In this document: positions 2,962 through 11,047 of the stretch, one piece after another
Numbering within the stretch: the stretch's first letter is position 1
How the letters are laid out: each line of letters opens with the position of its first letter
DNA from: a virus
Lineage: Duplodnaviria > Heunggongvirae > Uroviricota > Caudoviricetes
DNA length: 11,902 bases
IMG/VR virus record: IMGVR_UViG_2778261167_000009
Strand: one strand, 5' to 3'
Program-made: the position numbers and the translations under genes
The notes under the pieces: generated by a model
Databases searched by the model: none
What the model saw: the letters and a program-made list of their open reading frames with translations, nothing else
Told to the model about the DNA's origin: nothing

Positions 2962-3263
2962 CAGTACACCCCCACATCACGATAAACCGACCAGAGCGCA
3001 GAAATAGCCATAGGCAGTTCCGAGTGCTCAACTGGTGAAACCGCTTCCCGGTTCTCGTACAGGAAAGCGATGTACATCAGGCAACCAACACGTATTGCCG
3101 GGGTAAATTCCAGGCCGTCTTCAAAACGTTTCCCGATATGCTTCTGGCAGGCTTCCAGCGCCGCATCGGTATATATTTGCAGAAGTTCAACCTCACCATA
3201 AAAATCATCATCAAGGCGAAGATGGGCCATTACTTCATTAAGCGTAATTCTGGATTCACTCAT
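2961..3263 (-). CDS. Head-tail connector/adaptor protein, gp6-like
   Basis: Translation from the ATG at 3261-3263 (MSESRITLNEVMAHLRLDDDFYGEVELLQIYTDAALEACQKHIGKRF...) fits the gp6-like connector pattern. RBS GGTG lies upstream. The ORF-track extension to 3350 overlaps the portal 3' end and is not used. Confidence 0.75.
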   Translation of the reverse strand: MSESRITLNEVMAHLRLDDDFYGEVELLQIYTDAALEACQKHIGKRFEDGLEFTPAIRVGCLMYIAFLYENREAVSPVEHSELPMAISALWSVYRDVGVY

Positions 3264-4470
3264 CTTTTTCACCTTTAATTTCCACAGTCTGCTTCCATGC
3301 CTGGCTGAACTCGTCACCACCTTCACGCGGCGGCATACCCTCACGCTCACGGGCTTCGTTCGGATTCATGATCCCGTTCTTAATCCCTTTCTCATACGTG
3401 GCATAACGTTCGGTGGGTGTGGCGCGTAATAAATCGGCTGAATCAAACTCAACCAGATAACGGGTACCAGGTACGGGAGAAGCCACCAGCAAAGCGGCCT
3501 TGATTTGCTGTTCGAAGTTCGCCAGCCATGGGCGCATTGTCATGGTCAGAAACGCGCGGCTTGCCTCGCTGAAATTGCTGTAGGTGCTGTTGCTGTATTC
3601 CTGCAGAAAAATAGGCGATACGTTGAACATGCGGGCGATGTCTTCAATGGAGAAGCGACGGGAGGCCAGCCATTCCGCATCCTGGTTACTCATTCCCAGT
3701 TGCTTGTAATCCATGCCCCCTTCAAGGATTGGCGTTTTTCCGGCATTTTTCGCCCCCTTGTAGCGTTCCAGAGCATCTAATGCCTGTTTACCTTTCACGC
3801 CGTCCAGCCATTCGCCTGACGTGATAATCCCTGCCGCCATCATGCCATCTTTCATAATGCTGGCTCCGTGGCGCTGTTGAGCAAGGCCAAGCCCAAGCGC
3901 CTCACGGCAAATCGTGACAGGGGAGCGCCCCAGAAAGCCATCATCCGAGGCATAGCGGAGATGCAGAACTTCTTCCTGTAAATACGTGCGCACCGTTCCT
4001 GTATAGGGTTCGGTGATGGTATAGCGGTATTTGTGTGCGCCTGTGCGTTCCGGTACAACACACCCCGGCGCATAAGGATGAAGTGATTTTGGCTGCCCGT
4101 CCTGCCCCCACTCAATAACCGCATAGGCGTTACCGTTCAGCAGGCAGTGACGCATCATTGTGCGTTTAAACTGGTAAGGTGTCTGGCACGAATTAGGCTG
4201 CTCATTCAGCAGAATATCTACCGGGTGACTGTCCAGCCATTCCCGCGCCTCCCTGCCCTTGTCATTACGTACCAGATACAGATAACACGGCATCGTGGCC
4301 ACCGCCTCAGCGATGACAGAAACCGCGTTCATCACTGCAGGCAATGATTCAGCCGTCCCGGCAGAAACATATTCTCCGGATCCGGTATTCGGTACGCCGG
4401 ACAGCGCCAGAAAATCATCAATGGACAGGTTACGCTGCTCGCTTTTTTTACGACTAAAAGGCCACCACAT
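3256..4470 (-). CDS. Portal protein, HK97 family
   Basis: About 404 aa from the ATG at 4468-4470 (MWWPFSRKKSEQRNLSIDDFLAL...), with portal-like core motifs (FSIEDIARMFNVSPIFLQEY, RPWLANFEQQ). The start lies 1 nt after the protease stop, suggesting coupling. The upstream extension to 4560 is not protein-like. Confidence 0.9.
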   Translation of the reverse strand: MWWPFSRKKSEQRNLSIDDFLALSGVPNTGSGEYVSAGTAESLPAVMNAVSVIAEAVATMPCYLYLVRNDKGREAREWLDSHPVDILLNEQPNSCQTPYQFKRTMMRHCLLNGNAYAVIEWGQDGQPKSLHPYAPGCVVPERTGAHKYRYTITEPYTGTVRTYLQEEVLHLRYASDDGFLGRSPVTICREALGLGLAQQRHGASIMKDGMMAAGIITSGEWLDGVKGKQALDALERYKGAKNAGKTPILEGGMDYKQLGMSNQDAEWLASRRFSIEDIARMFNVSPIFLQEYSNSTYSNFSEASRAFLTMTMRPWLANFEQQIKAALLVASPVPGTRYLVEFDSADLLRATPTERYATYEKGIKNGIMNPNEAREREGMPPREGGDEFSQAWKQTVEIKGEKDE

Positions 4471-5032: not shown

Positions 5033-5053
5033 CGGTGTACTCCATAAAACTGA

Positions 5054-5074
5054 AAAAGGAGGCCGCAGCCTCCT
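5054..5074 (-). terminator. Terminator-like or attenuator hairpin between the capsid and protease genes
   Basis: On the minus strand: stem AGGAGGC, loop TGCG, stem GCCTCCT (plus 5057-5074), followed by a TTTT run, lying in the 54-bp gap after the major capsid stop. Could raise capsid transcript levels relative to downstream genes. Confidence 0.4.
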
Positions 5075-5086
5075 CCTTACTCATGA

Positions 5087-6256
5087 CTAGCCAGCTTTCA
5101 TTTCCAGAATTTTGATGGCGTTTGAATCCACCACACCACCGCCCAGATATTTATCCGTGTGGACCTTGTAGAATCCGGGTTCAGTAATGTTGTCCGGTCG
5201 GGTGCGAATCCCTGTTACATGATCAACGATGAAATAACCACGACTGAAATCGCCAACCGCTAGCGGTGCTTTTCCTGTGCCGATGTCCGGCATGGACTCC
5301 AAGCAGTAAACAGGACGACCAAGCAACATATCCGGCGCACCTTCTTTAAGGCTGTCGCGCCAGATATAATCGCCGTTCTCATTTTTCAGCTTCTGTAGTG
5401 TCCCTGCCGTGCCCGAGTTCATCACCCAGACGGCATTTTTGCGGTATTTCGCTTTCAGCTTGTAGAGAATGTCGATCAGTTCGTCCGCTGTAATGGCGGT
5501 TCCACTTGCCGCTACCATTTTTTCAATGGTGCCAAAAGCGCGGGTTTTGTCACTGGTCGCCGCACGGGTGTAAGCCATGAAGCCTTTCGGCTTGCCGTTA
5601 CCGTCGCCATTAACAAAATCATCCTCTTCGGTGCTGGCGAACGTGTCGGCAATTTCGGAGGATAACCAGCCCAGAATATCCACCTCTGAAAAATCTAGGA
5701 TTTCCTGCGTGGTTTTCGGGTAGGCGTAGATCGGATTCAGCTTGATGGTTACGCGTTCAATTTTCGGGGTGTTGGTTTCACTGCGTGCGCTGCCTTCTGT
5801 GCCTCGTCCTACAGTTGCGCCGCCAGTGGAAACCAGTTTCTGAAACTCATTTGATTTTGCAGTCTTCACGGTCGCGATCACGCGCATAACACTGTCATCC
5901 TGTAGCTGGCGCATGACTTCGCGATCAAGCTCAGGAATTACGGTATATCCGCCATCCCTGCCGCTGTCAGTGCTGGTGGACAGAGATCGCACATCTCCGG
6001 TTACGATGTAGTTACGCAATTCATCAGATGATAATTTCTGGATGCCCGTTCCTGGCTTGCTGCGTTCTTCATCAGCCACAGACTCGAGGCGGGAAATTTC
6101 TGTGTCGAGGGAGTCGGCTTTTGCACGCAGTTCATCAAACTGTTTGCCCTCGTCATCGTTCAGGCTGCGGTTTTCACTGTCGGCTTTTTCCAGCAGAGAT
6201 CGCATCTGGTTTTTCAGGGCGGTTTTTTGCTGGCGGAGTTCGATTAATTTCTTCAT
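5087..6256 (-). CDS. Major capsid protein, HK97 family, with N-terminal coiled-coil delta/scaffold domain
   Basis: 389-aa translation. The first ~100 residues are charged and coiled-coil-like (KKLIELRQQKTALKNQMRSLLEKADSENRSL...), followed by an HK97-type capsid core (GGYTVIPELDREVMRQL, FMAYTRAATSD, GRPVYCLESMP). Confidence 0.9.
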   Translation of the reverse strand: MKKLIELRQQKTALKNQMRSLLEKADSENRSLNDDEGKQFDELRAKADSLDTEISRLESVADEERSKPGTGIQKLSSDELRNYIVTGDVRSLSTSTDSGRDGGYTVIPELDREVMRQLQDDSVMRVIATVKTAKSNEFQKLVSTGGATVGRGTEGSARSETNTPKIERVTIKLNPIYAYPKTTQEILDFSEVDILGWLSSEIADTFASTEEDDFVNGDGNGKPKGFMAYTRAATSDKTRAFGTIEKMVAASGTAITADELIDILYKLKAKYRKNAVWVMNSGTAGTLQKLKNENGDYIWRDSLKEGAPDMLLGRPVYCLESMPDIGTGKAPLAVGDFSRGYFIVDHVTGIRTRPDNITEPGFYKVHTDKYLGGGVVDSNAIKILEMKAG

Positions 6257-6481
6257 GAAGGTTTTCTCGTATTGGTTAAGATTCAGGACGTGAAACCAAC
6301 ACGGAGGGAGCGCCGCCCGACACTCTCGGCATCTCGCAGATCAACCCGGCATCGCGCAGGGGGTCAGGCGGCATTGTGGCGGCTCACGTCTGAGTGCCAC
6401 GCTCCAACATATACATAAAAATCAGTATGTAAACACCTGTCAGTCAGACCGAACAACCACGAAAGAACACGAACAAATAAT

Positions 6482-6511
6482 TTACAAAAGAAGTAAACCA
6501 TGGCCTATTAT
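6482..6511 (+). promoter_or_regulatory. Putative sigma70 promoter for the AT-rich cargo gene
   Basis: TTACAA (6482-6487), 18-bp spacer, TATTAT (6506-6511), then RBS AAAGGA (6531-6536) and ATG at 6543. Pattern match only. Confidence 0.35.
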
Positions 6512-6542
6512 TGCTGTCTCTGACTACAACAAAGGACGCATC

Positions 6543-7049
6543 ATGAATTTAAGCGCAATGGTATACCCTGATACTTTCATAATTAATGGCGAATCATTCA
6601 GAGGTAAAAGAAACGCAAAAGAAAACAAGGTATTAATTCCATATACAAATGAACCGGAAGTAACTATTGGTCAACACATTATCCAGCGTGTCGGTAAAAA
6701 CGAGATAAATCTAAAAATTATAGATATGAAGTTGCTTCCCAATGGAACCCTCAGACAGGGAACCAATCATCCAAATATGTTGACTCTCTATATTGAAAAT
6801 ATCACGGGAAATGAACATATGACGCCAACTAAAAGTAATACATTTAACATTGGTTCAATTAGTGGTGATCAAGTGCAGATAGGTGAGCATAACCATATGC
6901 TGGTAAACATCAGCATCACTGAACTGGTTGAAAAAGTCGCTAAATCGGGGGATGTACAAGCCAAATCAGTATTAAAGCAGTTACTGGAAAACAGTACCGT
7001 TGCCAGCATTGTTGGGGCTGGCGCAAGTGCCCTAATAGGCTTACTGTAA
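6543..7049 (+). CDS. Hypothetical 168-aa protein, AT-rich cargo/moron gene; unrecognised N-terminal domain and C-terminal hydrophobic glycine-zipper-like tail
   Basis: The only long plus-strand ORF in the core, opposite to all flanking genes and visibly more AT-rich. Good RBS and its own promoter and terminator. Translation ends ...ENSTVASIVGAGASALIGLL. No family recognised. Confidence 0.7.
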   Translation: MNLSAMVYPDTFIINGESFRGKRNAKENKVLIPYTNEPEVTIGQHIIQRVGKNEINLKIIDMKLLPNGTLRQGTNHPNMLTLYIENITGNEHMTPTKSNTFNIGSISGDQVQIGEHNHMLVNISITELVEKVAKSGDVQAKSVLKQLLENSTVASIVGAGASALIGLL

Positions 7050-7051
7050 AA

Positions 7052-7086
7052 AAATGGCCTGGATTTTACCAGGCCTTTATTATTTT
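7052..7086. terminator. Bidirectional rho-independent terminator between convergent genes
   Basis: Stem GGCCTGG (7056-7062), loop ATTTTA, stem CCAGGCC (7069-7075), flanked by an A-run upstream and TTTATTATTTT downstream, so a U-tract follows the hairpin on both strands. Stop codons of the 6543-7049 gene and the 7085-7333 gene abut it. Confidence 0.6.
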
Positions 7087-7333
7087 ACCGTTTCACGGGA
7101 TCGCGCATTCTGCGCCTTATTTTCCACAGATATTCGATCATTGCTTCCACCTGCTCACGGTTGGTTGCGAAAATTTCCCCGGTCAGTGAGCTACGCAGAA
7201 AATCATGATGATCCACAAAAAACAACGCATCGGAAGAAAGCAGACGGCGATATTTTTTTGCTGTCATGGTTTCCAGATCATCAAAATCATGAAACTTTTT
7301 ATGTTGCTGGACTTCTTCAAATGTCACTGGCAT
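7085..7333 (-). CDS. Hypothetical 82-aa protein
   Basis: Translation from the ATG at 7331-7333 (MPVTFEEVQQHKKFHDFDDLETMTAKKYRRLL...), preceded by RBS AGAGGGG. The ORF-track extension to 7381 would overlap the SSB gene. No family recognised. Confidence 0.55.
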   Translation of the reverse strand: MPVTFEEVQQHKKFHDFDDLETMTAKKYRRLLSSDALFFVDHHDFLRSSLTGEIFATNREQVEAMIEYLWKIRRRMRDPVKR

Positions 7334-10951: not shown

Positions 10952-11047
10952 AGCTACCTCGATACTTCTGCTATCGTTGGTGGTTAGAAGCCCGGTTAGT
11001 GTTAGCGCACTGCCGGGTTTCGTCGTTTCTGCACCTTGCATCAACAA

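What the first reader, a model, noticed from the sequence alone, without database searches (positions are those of the whole stretch)
6257..6420. GC-rich structured leader with tandem direct repeats upstream of the capsid gene
Between the cargo gene promoter and the capsid start lies a GC-rich stretch that contrasts with the AT-rich flank. It holds two copies of CGGCATCNCGCAG 20 bp apart (6327-6340 and 6347-6360) and distal complementary segments (GGAGCG/CGCTCC) that could form a long-range stem. This could be a late-promoter activator site, a structured 5' UTR controlling capsid translation, or an alternative packaging recognition site.
Basis: seen in the sequence. Interest (0 to 1): 0.4.

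Follow-up and report, generated by a model that had tools for sequence, protein, structure and literature searches.

The report
Satellite capsid gene's structured leader RNA
The GC-rich stretch is most likely the transcribed leader of the capsid gene of a capsid-forming phage satellite (cf-PICI): a three-hairpin RNA, kept almost unchanged across many enterobacterial genera and not described before, that probably gates capsid production, while the "direct repeats" are two small neighbouring hairpins at the tip of its variable middle stem.

Summary
The window is an E. coli capsid-forming PICI with all core genes on the minus strand. Positions 6257-6420 lie inside a 233-bp non-coding block (6257-6489) upstream of the capsid gene (5087-6256, minus strand). 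This block is kept whatever cargo sits beside it.

Read on the minus strand, the block holds:
- a conserved sigma-70-like promoter (TTTACA-16-TATGTT, 6433-6406);
- P1, a 25-nt hairpin (6400-6376) at the predicted transcript start, identical in at least 140 of 147 leaders;
- P2, a long stem in which all 10 pairs covary;
- a C/U-rich linker;
- P3, whose 3' strand is the A-rich region just before the AUG.

They occur only in some lineages.

The 3' half of P1 is also complementary over 12 bp to the 5' strand of P3, with one compensatory change. The two pairings cannot both form, which suggests a conformational switch on capsid translation. The trigger is unknown.

There is no Rfam match and no literature hit. 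The leader is absent from related satellites in Xenorhabdus, Gilliamella and Pasteurellaceae, so it is not a packaging site. The activator-site reading is not supported.

The parts
6473..6487 (-). Conserved upstream box TTGTAAATTATTTGT, about 88-74 nt upstream of P1. It marks the left edge of the variable cargo slot and is a candidate regulator site for the packaging promoter.
   Evidence: Single exact copy in the window. It is the highest-information block upstream of the promoter in 90 distinct upstream sequences, at fixed distance. It is kept in Xenorhabdus and Pasteurellaceae islands that lack the leader. Homology among E. coli islands ends at about 6489.
6406..6433 (-). Sigma-70-like promoter: -35 TTTACA (6433-6428), 16-nt spacer, -10 TATGTT (6411-6406). 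The predicted start is at or within 1-2 nt of 6400.
   Evidence: Consensus scan. TTT of the -35 and TAT.TT of the -10 carry 1.4-2.0 bits at fixed distance from P1 in 90 sequences. Terminators separate it from upstream genes. No transcript mapping exists, so the promoter is inferred.
6376..6400 (-). P1: 5'-terminal hairpin GUGGCACUCAGACGUGAGCCGCCAC (5 bp, bulged A, 4 bp, loop GACG, CC bulge).
   Evidence: All 9 pairs are paired in 81 of 81 distinct leaders, 3 of them with compensatory changes (G-C to A-U twice, A-U to C-G). Loop variants are almost absent.
6380..6391 (-). Segment Y (AGACGUGAGCCG): the loop plus 3' strand of P1, also complementary to segment Z.
   Evidence: The 12-bp Y:Z helix is 97.1% paired across 81 leaders, against 25-53% when slid. 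One pair changes U-A to G-C in the variant lineage. Duplex energy is -17.5 kcal/mol, reached by 12 of 1000 shuffles.
6312..6372 (-). P2: long variable hairpin. The outer stem is GCCGCCUGAC (6372-6363) with GUCGGGCGGC (6321-6312). The apex is modular.
   Evidence: 10 of 10 outer pairs show compensatory changes and 95.7% of cells are paired. RNAalifold predicts it. At least 8 unrelated stem sequences occur.
6347..6359 (-).
   Evidence: Homologous tandem modules occur in other P2 classes (GCUGC-GAGAA-GUAGC plus CUGC-GAGAC-GCAG), where the closing pair covaries C-G / A-U / U-G. The same apex occurs in L220, which belongs to the other P1 lineage.
6327..6339 (-). P2b: second copy of the repeat, CUGC-GAGAU-GCCG.
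   Evidence: As for P2a.
6303..6311 (-). C/U-rich single-stranded linker (GCUCCCUCC), always pyrimidine-rich and variable in sequence.
   Evidence: Alignments A2 and A3. It is unpaired in the folds.
6287..6298 (-). Segment Z (UGGUUUCACGUC): near-invariant box that forms the 5' strand of P3 and is complementary to Y.
   Evidence: Invariant or nearly invariant columns in A2. The only clade difference, A to C, matches the U to G change in Y, and that position is a bulge in P3.
6260..6277 (-). 3' partners of Z. One is a window-subgroup decoy, AACCAAUACG (6277-6268). The other is segment W, ACGAGAAAACC (6270-6260), the A-rich, Shine-Dalgarno-poor region just 5' of the AUG.
   Evidence: P3 (Z:W) is 98.3% paired in 81 leaders, with only U-A to U-G type changes. 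It is in the minimum-free-energy fold of most leaders. In the window the decoy stem, 10 bp at -9.7 kcal/mol, is preferred.
5087..6256 (-). Major capsid protein gene (HK97-type), the first gene of the packaging module and the gene served by the leader.
   Evidence: RefSeq annotation of the identical locus. The covariance model hits always end at this ATG.
5053..5078 (-). Terminator-like hairpin plus U run just after the capsid stop codon: AAGGAGGAGGCUGCGGCCUCCUUUUU.
   Evidence: Scan. A GC hairpin followed by a U run occurs at the same place, with different sequences, in nearly all of 100 distinct islands.

Best explanation
The region is the 5' untranslated leader of the capsid mRNA of a capsid-forming PICI. 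The packaging module has its own sigma-70-type promoter (6433-6406).

The transcript is predicted to begin at or next to the first base of the invariant hairpin P1. It continues through a long stem of free sequence (P2). A pyrimidine-rich linker follows, then a hairpin (P3) whose 3' strand is the A-rich, Shine-Dalgarno-poor ribosome-binding region of the capsid gene.

The loop and 3' strand of P1 (Y) can instead pair with the 5' strand of P3 (Z). The RNA can therefore exist as P1+P3, with the ribosome site occluded, or as Y:Z, with the ribosome site free. My reading is that this is a cis-acting conformational switch. It sets how much capsid protein is made, and through translation-coupled protection it may also set how much mRNA survives. 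An unknown factor that recognises the invariant P1 would flip it. A 5'-terminal hairpin together with the terminator hairpin after the gene would also stabilise the message.

Shown here:
- the conservation of the element;
- the helices and their covariation;
- the strand;
- the fixed position before the capsid AUG;
- the mutual exclusivity and near-equal stability of the two pairings.

Inferred, not shown:
- the promoter and transcript start;
- the effect on translation;
- the existence and identity of a trigger.
For: Identity of the window. It is 100% identical to an E. coli island with the gene order int, alpA-type, primase, ssb, capsid, protease, portal, HNH, terS, terL.

Conservation. The non-coding block 6257-6489 is kept in 153 of 172 matching E. 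coli genomes, next to different neighbouring genes.

P1. The 25-mer is exact in at least 120 viral contigs and in at least 12 genera.

Structure:
- RNAalifold predicts P1 and P2.
- On the MAFFT alignment, 95.3% of cells are paired, against 36-48% when slid, and 0 of 500 shuffles reach the observed values.
- On the covariance-model alignment, 97.9% are paired. P1 has 3 covarying pairs, P2 has 10 of 10, and P3 is 98.3% paired.
- G-U pairs occur in P2 and P3. They would be A-C mismatches on the other strand.

Alternative helix. Y:Z is 97.1% paired over 12 bp. The only clade-specific change in Z is the exact complement of the change in Y, and it sits at a position that is bulged in P3. Cognate Y:Z duplexes are -17.5 and -17.4 kcal/mol, against -14.0 and -14.7 for mixed pairs. 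Only 12 of 1000 shuffles reach the observed energy.

Energies. P1 plus P3 gives -24.4 kcal/mol. Forcing Y:Z costs on average +5.2 kcal/mol and lowers the number of paired bases in -16..+3 from 13.0 to 8.4.

Placement. The covariance model finds the leader only directly upstream of capsid ATGs, in 22 of 80 capsid-homolog loci.

Promoter. The conserved positions sit at fixed spacing from P1. Terminators isolate the unit from upstream genes.

Related islands without the leader have a short, unstructured, A-rich, SD-less leader. This fits an initiation region that must be single-stranded.
Against: There is no experimental transcript start, and no expression or structure-probing data.

P3 and Y:Z are nearly invariant. 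Their support is conserved complementarity plus one compensatory event in what may be a single lineage split, not repeated independent covariation.

In the window's own subgroup, Z pairs best with a subgroup-specific decoy. The AUG-proximal region is then largely open in the minimum-free-energy fold, so occlusion is weak here: 10 versus 8 paired bases.

P1+P3 is favoured in nested folding, and the pseudoknotted alternative could not be scored.

No trigger was found. No complementary partner is conserved elsewhere in the island, and no RNA-binding protein was identified.

The invariance of P1's unpaired bases and 5' strand is not explained by the switch alone.

Symmetric changes in an inverted repeat could also reflect a palindromic DNA site.
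Confidence: 0.5

Rival explanations
1. A static leader with no switching. P1 is a 5'-terminal protective hairpin. With the terminator hairpin after the capsid gene, it makes a long-lived, highly expressed monocistronic capsid mRNA. P2 is an insulating spacer, and the pyrimidine-rich linker is a ribosome standby site. The Y:Z complementarity has no function.
For: P1 lies at the predicted 5' end with no single-stranded overhang. A hairpin plus U run directly after the capsid stop is conserved. P1 is in the minimum-free-energy fold of 64 of 67 leaders. In the window subgroup the initiation region is open anyway. That 5'-terminal hairpins protect E. coli mRNAs such as ompA is my own knowledge.
Against: A stabiliser needs only a stem. 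It does not need an invariant 25-mer with fixed loop and bulges. This model does not explain the 12-bp Y:Z complementarity, the matched A to C change at a position bulged in P3, or why the initiation region is paired in most lineages.
Confidence: 0.2
2. A processive antitermination RNA, put-like or nut-like. The nascent P1-P2 RNA binds the transcribing RNA polymerase, alone or with a factor that recognises the pentaloop hairpins. The polymerase then reads through the terminator after the capsid gene into protease, portal and terminase.
For: Two stem-loops begin at the transcript start, as for HK022 putL (PMC9378689). A conserved terminator-like hairpin follows the first gene of a roughly 6-kb module. 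Extreme invariance of P1 across genera would fit a highly conserved host partner such as RNA polymerase. The P2a and P2b loops (G-N-G-A-N) recall GNRA-like boxB pentaloops (own knowledge).
Against: There is no similarity to the HK022 early region. The best covariance-model score is 4 bits at E=2.2 with filters off, and blastn against phages finds only satellite-like records. The P2 apex with the pentaloops is not conserved across the family. No N-like arginine-rich protein is evident. The model does not explain Z, W or Y:Z. Partial read-through of one terminator needs no special device.
Confidence: 0.1
3. A DNA-level regulatory site. The direct repeats or the imperfect palindrome of P1 bind a repressor or activator of the packaging promoter.
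For: The repeats are 20 bp apart, two helical turns, and are non-random. P1 is an imperfect inverted repeat at about +1 to +25. Its changes are symmetric, which a dimeric DNA-binding protein could also impose.
Against: The repeats are lineage-specific and lie +42 to +74. P2 is conserved only as pairing, with G-U pairs valid on one strand. P1 is asymmetric, with an A bulge on one side and a CC bulge on the other. Y:Z and Z:W are direct-sense complements and not palindromes.
Confidence: 0.06
4. A packaging (cos/pac) recognition site of the satellite.
For: It lies at the start of the packaging module, and P1 is invariant in sequence with partial dyad symmetry.
Against: It is absent from 58 of 80 loci with homologous capsids, including cf-PICI-like islands of Xenorhabdus, Photorhabdus, Gilliamella and Pasteurellaceae that keep the promoter and box. 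Most of it varies freely in sequence. In HK97-type systems cos lies next to the HNH and terS genes (own knowledge), that is, about 4 kb away here.
Confidence: 0.02
5. A leader-derived small RNA. A P1-P2 fragment is released and acts in trans on helper-phage or host transcripts.
For: The 5' domain is stable and compact, and its sequence is invariant across hosts.
Against: There is no terminator or known processing site after P2. No conserved target was seen in the island. The invariant parts are explained at least in part by cis pairing.
Confidence: 0.05

Closest known systems
Four-segment leader attenuators (trp-type 1:2/2:3/3:4; ermC/cat translational attenuation)
   Same: Four ordered segments (X, Y, Z, W) in which the middle pairing (Y:Z) excludes both outer ones. 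The last hairpin hides the ribosome-binding region, as in ermC (own knowledge; pairings shown).
   Different: There is no leader peptide and no room for one, since X is at the predicted 5' end. A large hairpin (P2) is inserted between segments 2 and 3. P3 has no U run, so the output is not transcription termination. The trigger is unknown.
Phage mRNA conformational switches on translation (lambda cIII alternative structures; Mu mom leader opened by Com)
   Same: A phage-type gene whose initiation region is closed or open depending on alternative folding of its own leader. In those systems a protein shifts the balance (own knowledge).
   Different: There is no sequence relation. No Com-like zinc-finger protein or other partner was found. 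Here the anti-occluding strand is itself locked in a 5' hairpin.
HK022 put RNA
   Same: Two stem-loops made immediately after the promoter and an apparently host-directed invariant part. Terminators lie downstream.
   Different: No similarity by covariance model or blastn. put is about 70 nt with a triplex in stem I (PMC9378689). Here the second stem is free in sequence, and a third hairpin involves the ribosome site.
lambda-type nut boxB hairpins
   Same: P2a and P2b are 4-5 bp stems with five-base loops starting G-N-G-A, formally GNRA-like pentaloops, in tandem.
   Different: They are present in only some P2 classes. No conserved boxA and no N-like gene were found. In the window both stems carry a U-C mismatch.
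5'-terminal stabiliser hairpins (ompA-type) and standby-site leaders (tisB-type)
   Same: A hairpin flush with the 5' end, and a single-stranded pyrimidine-rich tract between two stable hairpins upstream of a structured start region.
   Different: Those elements are not sequence-invariant, and they have no built-in competitor strand for the start-region hairpin.
Rfam families (release 15, 4227 models)
   Same: None.
   Different: No match over 6200-6560 even at E up to 10 with permissive filters. The only hit is a chance snoRNA match on the other strand.

Membership tests
Any described RNA family (Rfam 15) | Score at or above the family's gathering threshold | tested here: not met
   The whole window at E<=1 gives only a sub-threshold SymR hit elsewhere. 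The region 6200-6560 at E<=10 gives only snoR120, 22 bits against a gathering score of 55, on the + strand.
cis-regulatory structured 5' UTR (generic kind) | Lies between a promoter and the start codon on the coding strand | tested here: inconclusive
   Its position directly 5' of the capsid ATG on the same strand holds in every case. The promoter is a conserved consensus match only, with no mapped transcript start.
cis-regulatory structured 5' UTR (generic kind) | Secondary structure conserved through compensatory changes | tested here: met
   P1 has 3 of 9 pairs and P2 has 10 of 10 pairs with double changes. 97.9% of cells are paired, against 35-52% when slid. The same holds on the unfitted MAFFT alignment.
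Translational switch / attenuator | Ribosome-binding region paired in one conformer and freed by a mutually exclusive alternative helix | tested here: inconclusive
   Z:W and Y:Z share the Z strand, and both are conserved. Energies are within about 5 kcal/mol. Covariation rests on one event, and occlusion is weak in the window's subgroup.
Translational switch / attenuator | A signal (ribosome stalling, ligand, protein, RNA, temperature) that shifts the equilibrium | not testable with these tools
   There is no leader ORF. No conserved trans partner was found in the island. No candidate protein was identified.
HK022 put antiterminator RNA | Sequence and structure similarity to putL/putR | tested here: not met
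   Covariance model R1 over HK022 24-34 kb with filters off gives a best score of 4 bits at E=2.2. blastn of the leader against 50,697 phage records finds only 3 satellite-like records.
HK022 put antiterminator RNA | Two stem-loops just downstream of the promoter, with terminators downstream to be bypassed | tested here: met
   P1 and P2 begin at the predicted start. A conserved terminator-like hairpin follows the capsid gene. This is an architectural resemblance only.
HK022 put antiterminator RNA | Factor-independent read-through that depends on the beta' zinc-binding domain | not testable with these tools
   This needs terminator-reporter assays and rpoC mutants.
lambda-type nut site | boxA plus a boxB hairpin conserved across relatives, with a cognate N protein | tested here: not met
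   The pentaloop hairpins occur in only some P2 classes. No conserved boxA was found. No N-like ORF or family hit was found.
cos/pac packaging site | Present in all elements that use the same packaging machinery | tested here: not met
   It is absent in 58 of 80 capsid-homolog loci, including satellite-like islands that keep the same promoter and box.
Activator-dependent late promoter (upstream repeats as binding sites) | Conserved repeats located upstream of the core promoter | tested here: not met
   The repeats lie downstream of the predicted start and are lineage-specific. The conserved upstream element is the TTGTAAAT box, a single copy.

The most novel reading that the evidence does not exclude
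The invariant P1 hairpin is a docking site for a conserved host machine (RNA polymerase, the 30S subunit or an RNase) or for a helper-phage product. The leader would then be a new class of satellite-encoded sensor or antiterminator RNA. It would time or license capsid-operon expression independently of the known AlpA induction step, for example by coupling satellite capsid production to the helper's late phase, when tails become available.
Probability: 0.15. Interest if true: 0.75.

Novelty: new variant of a known kind. Interest (0 to 1): 0.5.

Why it matters
Capsid-forming PICIs build their own capsids and take only tails from helper phages. How their packaging module is expressed has not been addressed in the papers I could read.

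This work defines a discrete expression unit: box, promoter, leader, capsid gene and terminator. Its leader RNA is among the most conserved sequences of these mosaic elements, across at least a dozen genera, and the unit sits at the boundary where cargo (defence) genes are swapped.

If the switch model holds, it gives a direct handle on when and how much satellite capsid is made. It also gives a compact, host-portable regulatory RNA for engineering, and a 25-nt signature for finding these satellites in genomes and viromes. If the model is wrong, the extreme invariance of P1 still needs an explanation.

Tried and rejected
- Rfam scans of the window and of the region found nothing. ARAGORN found no tRNA-like element.
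- A literature search for the invariant sequences found nothing relevant. The cf-PICI papers do not mention the leader, its promoter or a cos position.
- Natural variants of the P1 loop are almost non-existent: 1 contig with A12 to G and 0 with a C13 change. Independent covariation for Y:Z could therefore not be obtained.
The only real variants were from the one lineage already seen.
- I looked for a trans partner in the window. The only notable hit is a 13-nt perfect complement of Z inside the capsid ORF (5769-5781). It is subgroup-specific, and its 9-nt core encodes a conserved peptide, so I treat it as coincidence.
- I looked for a candidate regulator. The 82-aa protein encoded just upstream (phrog_1957) has no Pfam, NCBIfam or PDB relative, and its AlphaFold model is unusable at pLDDT 51.
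- A sigma-54 promoter reading of TGGCAC in P1 was rejected by eye, because there is no GC element at the -12 spacing.
- A sigma-dependent pause element in P1 was rejected, because there is no -10-like hexamer.
- A riboswitch aptamer is unlikely. The largest domain (P2) is free in sequence, and the conserved bases lie in the helices that compete.
Full report
**Context**

The window is 100% identical to a chromosomal island of E. coli TUM12357. On the window's minus strand the island reads: integrase, DUF6387, HTH (alpA-type), Icd-like, DUF4222, primase, small ORFs, SSB, an 82-aa ORF, then major capsid, prohead protease, portal, head-tail connector, HNH, terS and terL. This is the gene plan of a capsid-forming PICI (bioRxiv 10.1101/2022.09.08.507074).

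A single AT-rich ORF of unknown function (6543-7049, + strand, phrog_5789) sits between the replication and packaging modules. The cf-PICI papers place variable, presumably defence, genes in that slot. The finding therefore lies upstream of the capsid gene (5087-6256, minus strand) and must be read right to left.

**The observation**

- The GC contrast is real: 0.56 against about 0.36.
- The two 13-mers are at 6327-6339 and 6347-6359, 12 of 13 identical and 20 nt apart. Only 1 of 2000 dinucleotide shuffles gives such a repeat.
- GGAGCG and CGCTCC exist and pair in the single-sequence fold. The minus-strand RNA folds at -60.7 kcal/mol, z = -2.9. The plus strand folds less well, z = -1.7.

**Extent and conservation**

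blastn of 6257-6542 against 5,426 complete E. coli genomes finds 172 genomes. In 153 of them the match covers 6257-6489 and stops there, whatever lies beyond. The neighbour can be a cargo gene on either strand, a ProQ/FinO gene, or small ORFs.

An alignment of six diverse islands showed blocks of very different behaviour. The sharpest block, GTGGCACTCAGACGTGAGCCGCCAC (6400-6376, minus strand), is:
- unique in the window.

An unbiased set was retrieved through the capsid protein from one genome per species. In it the 25-mer is exact in Enterobacter, Kluyvera, Pluralibacter, Citrobacter, Rahnella, Kosakonia, Pantoea, Erwinia, Winslowiella, Pectobacterium, Rosenbergiella and Serratia, always 120-146 nt before the capsid ATG.

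**Anatomy (capsid-sense strand)**

Anchoring 90 distinct upstream sequences on the 25-mer gives three conserved elements at fixed spacing:
- a TTGTAAAT box at -87 to -81;
- TTT(A/T)C at -33 to -29;
- TAT(C/G)TT at -11 to -6.

This is a sigma-70-like promoter: in the window, TTTACA-16-TATGTT at 6433-6406. Its predicted start falls at or within 1-2 nt of the first G of the 25-mer.

Upstream genes are cut off by terminator-like hairpins. These lie either before the box or between the box and the -35 element. In the window, a bidirectional terminator at 7056-7075 does this. The capsid unit therefore needs its own promoter.

Downstream of the start come five parts:
- P1, the 25-mer: 5 bp, a bulged A, 4 bp, loop GACG and a CC bulge.
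- P2, a stem of 10-12 bp with at least eight unrelated sequences, for example GGCCGUUUAAUC/GAUUAAACGGCC, GUCCACCUGG/CCAGGUGGAC and GCCCGCCCCG/CGGGGGCGGGC. Its apex is modular.
- A pyrimidine-rich linker.
- The near-invariant box (G)CUGGUUUCACGUC, called Z.
- About 16-20 variable nt, then ACG(A)GAAACCA, called W, 3-5 nt before the AUG.

**Structure tests**

RNAalifold on 67 distinct leaders predicts P1 and P2.

Pair counts on the MAFFT alignment:

| Helix | Result |
|---|---|
| P1 | 9 of 9 pairs always paired, 3 with double changes |
| P2 | 9 of 10 pairs with double changes |
| P3 (Z:W) | 93% paired |
| Whole structure | 95.3% paired, 36-48% when slid, 0 of 500 shuffles reach any observed measure |

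A covariance model built from this alignment finds the element in 22 of 80 capsid-homolog loci and nowhere else in them.

On the model-fitted alignment of 81 distinct leaders, which by construction leans towards the structure, the figures are:

| Helix | Result |
|---|---|
| P1 | 100% paired |
| P2 | 10 of 10 pairs covarying |
| P3 | 98.3% paired |
| Whole structure | 97.9% paired |

The one-sided changes in P2 and P3 are U-A to U-G or G-C to G-U. These keep pairing only in RNA of the capsid-sense strand.

P1 variants come from three sources and all keep the hairpin:
- Leclercia: GUGACACUCCGGCGGGAGCCGUCAC.
- Two Serratia loci and 16 viral or metagenome loci: ...CCGACGGG...
- Xenorhabdus: AUGGC...GCCAU.

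On the RNA strand the repeats read CUGC-GCGAU-GCCG and CUGC-GAGAU-GCCG. In the commonest P2 class the apex is a three-way junction with two adjacent small hairpins of the same design, for example GCUGC-GAGAA-GUAGC and CUGC-GAGAC-GCAG. Their loops are G-N-G-A-N, and the closing pair covaries C-G, A-U or U-G.

Other classes have one different hairpin instead. The window-type apex also appears in L220, which carries the other P1 lineage.

The repeats are therefore a tandem pair of small hairpins in a swappable, non-essential-looking part of P2. They are not a family-wide feature. They lie about +42 to +74, which is not where an activator would bind.

**A competing helix**

In the lineage where P1 changes CUCA/UGAG to CUCC/GGAG, the Z box changes from GGUUUCACGUC to GGUUUCCCGUC in every one of 16 or more loci.

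The changed A to C in Z is complementary to the changed U to G in the P1 3' strand. That position is an unpaired bulge in P3. P1's loop and 3' strand (AGACGUGAGCCG, called Y) are complementary to CUGG-U-UUCACGUCU over 12 bp with one bulge.

- The helix is 97.1% paired across 81 leaders, against 25-53% when slid.
- The Y:Z duplex is -17.5 kcal/mol, reached by 12 of 1000 shuffles of the downstream segment.
- Cognate pairs are about 3 kcal/mol better than mixed pairs.
- P1 (-11.4) plus P3 (-13.0) totals -24.4 kcal/mol.
- In nested folding, forcing Y:Z costs +5.2 +/- 2.5 kcal/mol. It lowers pairing in -16..+3 of the AUG from 13.0 to 8.4 bases.

A pseudoknot that keeps the outer P1 stem could not be scored.

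Thus X:Y (P1), Y:Z and Z:W (P3) form the classic 1:2 / 2:3 / 3:4 arrangement, with W as the initiation region.

W is purine- and A-rich with at most a 3-nt Shine-Dalgarno match. Islands without the leader have a short, unstructured, A-rich leader ending AAAAACACCAUG. This fits initiation that depends on single-strandedness.

**Caveats**

- P3 and Y:Z are almost invariant, so the covariation evidence for them rests on one coordinated change.
- In the window's own subgroup, Z pairs best with a subgroup-specific decoy (CGUGUUGGUU with AACCAAUACG, 6303-6294 and 6277-6268, -9.7 kcal/mol). The AUG-proximal bases are then largely open.
- The promoter is a prediction.
- Nothing explains the invariance of P1's 5' strand, bulges and loop beyond the part that pairs with Z.
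- No trigger was found.

**Distribution argues against a packaging site**

Most Xenorhabdus and Photorhabdus loci keep the TTGTAAAT box, a terminator-like hairpin and a CATGGTGTTAAAT promoter region, but have only about 45 nt of AT-rich leader. Some Xenorhabdus and Photorhabdus loci, and the Gilliamella loci, carry unrelated structured leaders in the same slot. Pasteurellaceae satellite-like loci have a short hairpin only. Loci in true phage context have coding sequence upstream.

One of the unrelated leaders (L187, L189) again shows a 5' segment able to pair either with an internal segment or with an RBS-proximal segment. This hints that gating the capsid start is a recurrent solution.

**Comparison with known systems**

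- No Rfam family matches, and no paper contains the sequences.
- GenBank phages hit only through three satellite-like records.
- HK022 put RNA shares the 'two stem-loops right after the promoter' layout (PMC9378689). A conserved terminator-like hairpin does follow the capsid gene. The covariance model, however, finds nothing in the HK022 early region, and put-type function would not explain Z, W and Y:Z.
- boxB-like pentaloops are not conserved in the family, and no N-like gene is present.

**Verdict**

The finding is a real, strongly conserved and previously undescribed leader RNA of the cf-PICI capsid operon. The repeats and the GGAGCG/CGCTCC stem, which drew attention, are lineage-specific details. 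The conserved core is P1, Z and W together with the promoter and box.

The most likely mechanism is a bistable leader that controls access to the capsid start codon and stabilises the message. My confidence is about 0.5 for the switch and higher, about 0.85, for 'structured cis-acting leader RNA'.

Noticed in passing
window 6473-6487 (-): Invariant box TTGTAAATTATTTGT at a fixed distance of about 88 nt upstream of the predicted capsid-operon start. It is conserved even in Xenorhabdus and Pasteurellaceae islands that lack the leader. It coincides with the point where homology between islands breaks and cargo genes begin. It may be a regulator site or a recombination boundary.
   Followed up: partly
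window 5053-5078 (-): Strong terminator-like hairpin plus U run immediately after the capsid stop codon and before the protease gene. A GC hairpin plus U run occurs at the same place, with different sequences, in nearly all related islands. This implies a mostly monocistronic capsid mRNA, with read-through supplying the other packaging genes.
   Followed up: partly
window 7056-7075 (both strands): Bidirectional terminator-like hairpin (GGCCTGGATTTTACCAGGCC) between the convergent cargo ORF and the 82-aa ORF. It ends the replication-module transcript before the packaging module.
   Followed up: no
window 7088-7333 (-): An 82-aa protein of unknown function (phrog_1957) is the last gene before the cargo slot. 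A homologue lies upstream of the leader in 108 fetched loci, including two without P1. It has no Pfam, NCBIfam or PDB relative, and its AlphaFold model has pLDDT 51. It is a possible regulator of the packaging unit, but nothing links it to that role yet.
   Followed up: partly
L156, L187, L189 (Xenorhabdus/Photorhabdus) and L160, L175, L181 (Gilliamella), the ~150-200 nt before the capsid ATG: Unrelated structured leaders occupy the same slot behind the same type of promoter. In L187 and L189 a 5' segment, ACAUGUAGG, can pair either with CCUGCAUG or with the RBS-proximal CCUACAUG. This would be a second, independent switch-like design.
   Followed up: partly
window 10952-11024 (+): Sub-threshold Rfam match to the SymR antitoxin RNA (33.6 bits, gathering score 61, E=0.003). 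It lies in the divergent regulatory region between the Icd-like gene and a YlcI/YnfO-like gene.
   Followed up: no
window 5769-5781: The capsid mRNA contains GUGAAACCAACAC, a perfect 13-nt complement of the Z region of its own leader. Only the 9-nt core GAAACCAGC recurs in other islands, where it encodes a conserved E-T-S peptide, so this is probably coincidence.
   Followed up: yes
window 6543-7049 (+): The cargo ORF (168 aa, GC about 0.35, phrog_5789) has no Pfam or NCBIfam match. It lies in the slot where cf-PICIs are reported to carry defence genes. Other islands carry DUF3775, ProQ/FinO or other genes there.
   Followed up: partly
L164 (Xenorhabdus kozodoii), 3215-3364: A leader copy lies downstream of the capsid match that fetched this locus. 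This implies a second, tandem satellite or capsid gene on the same contig. Several Xenorhabdus genomes hold many such islands.
   Followed up: no
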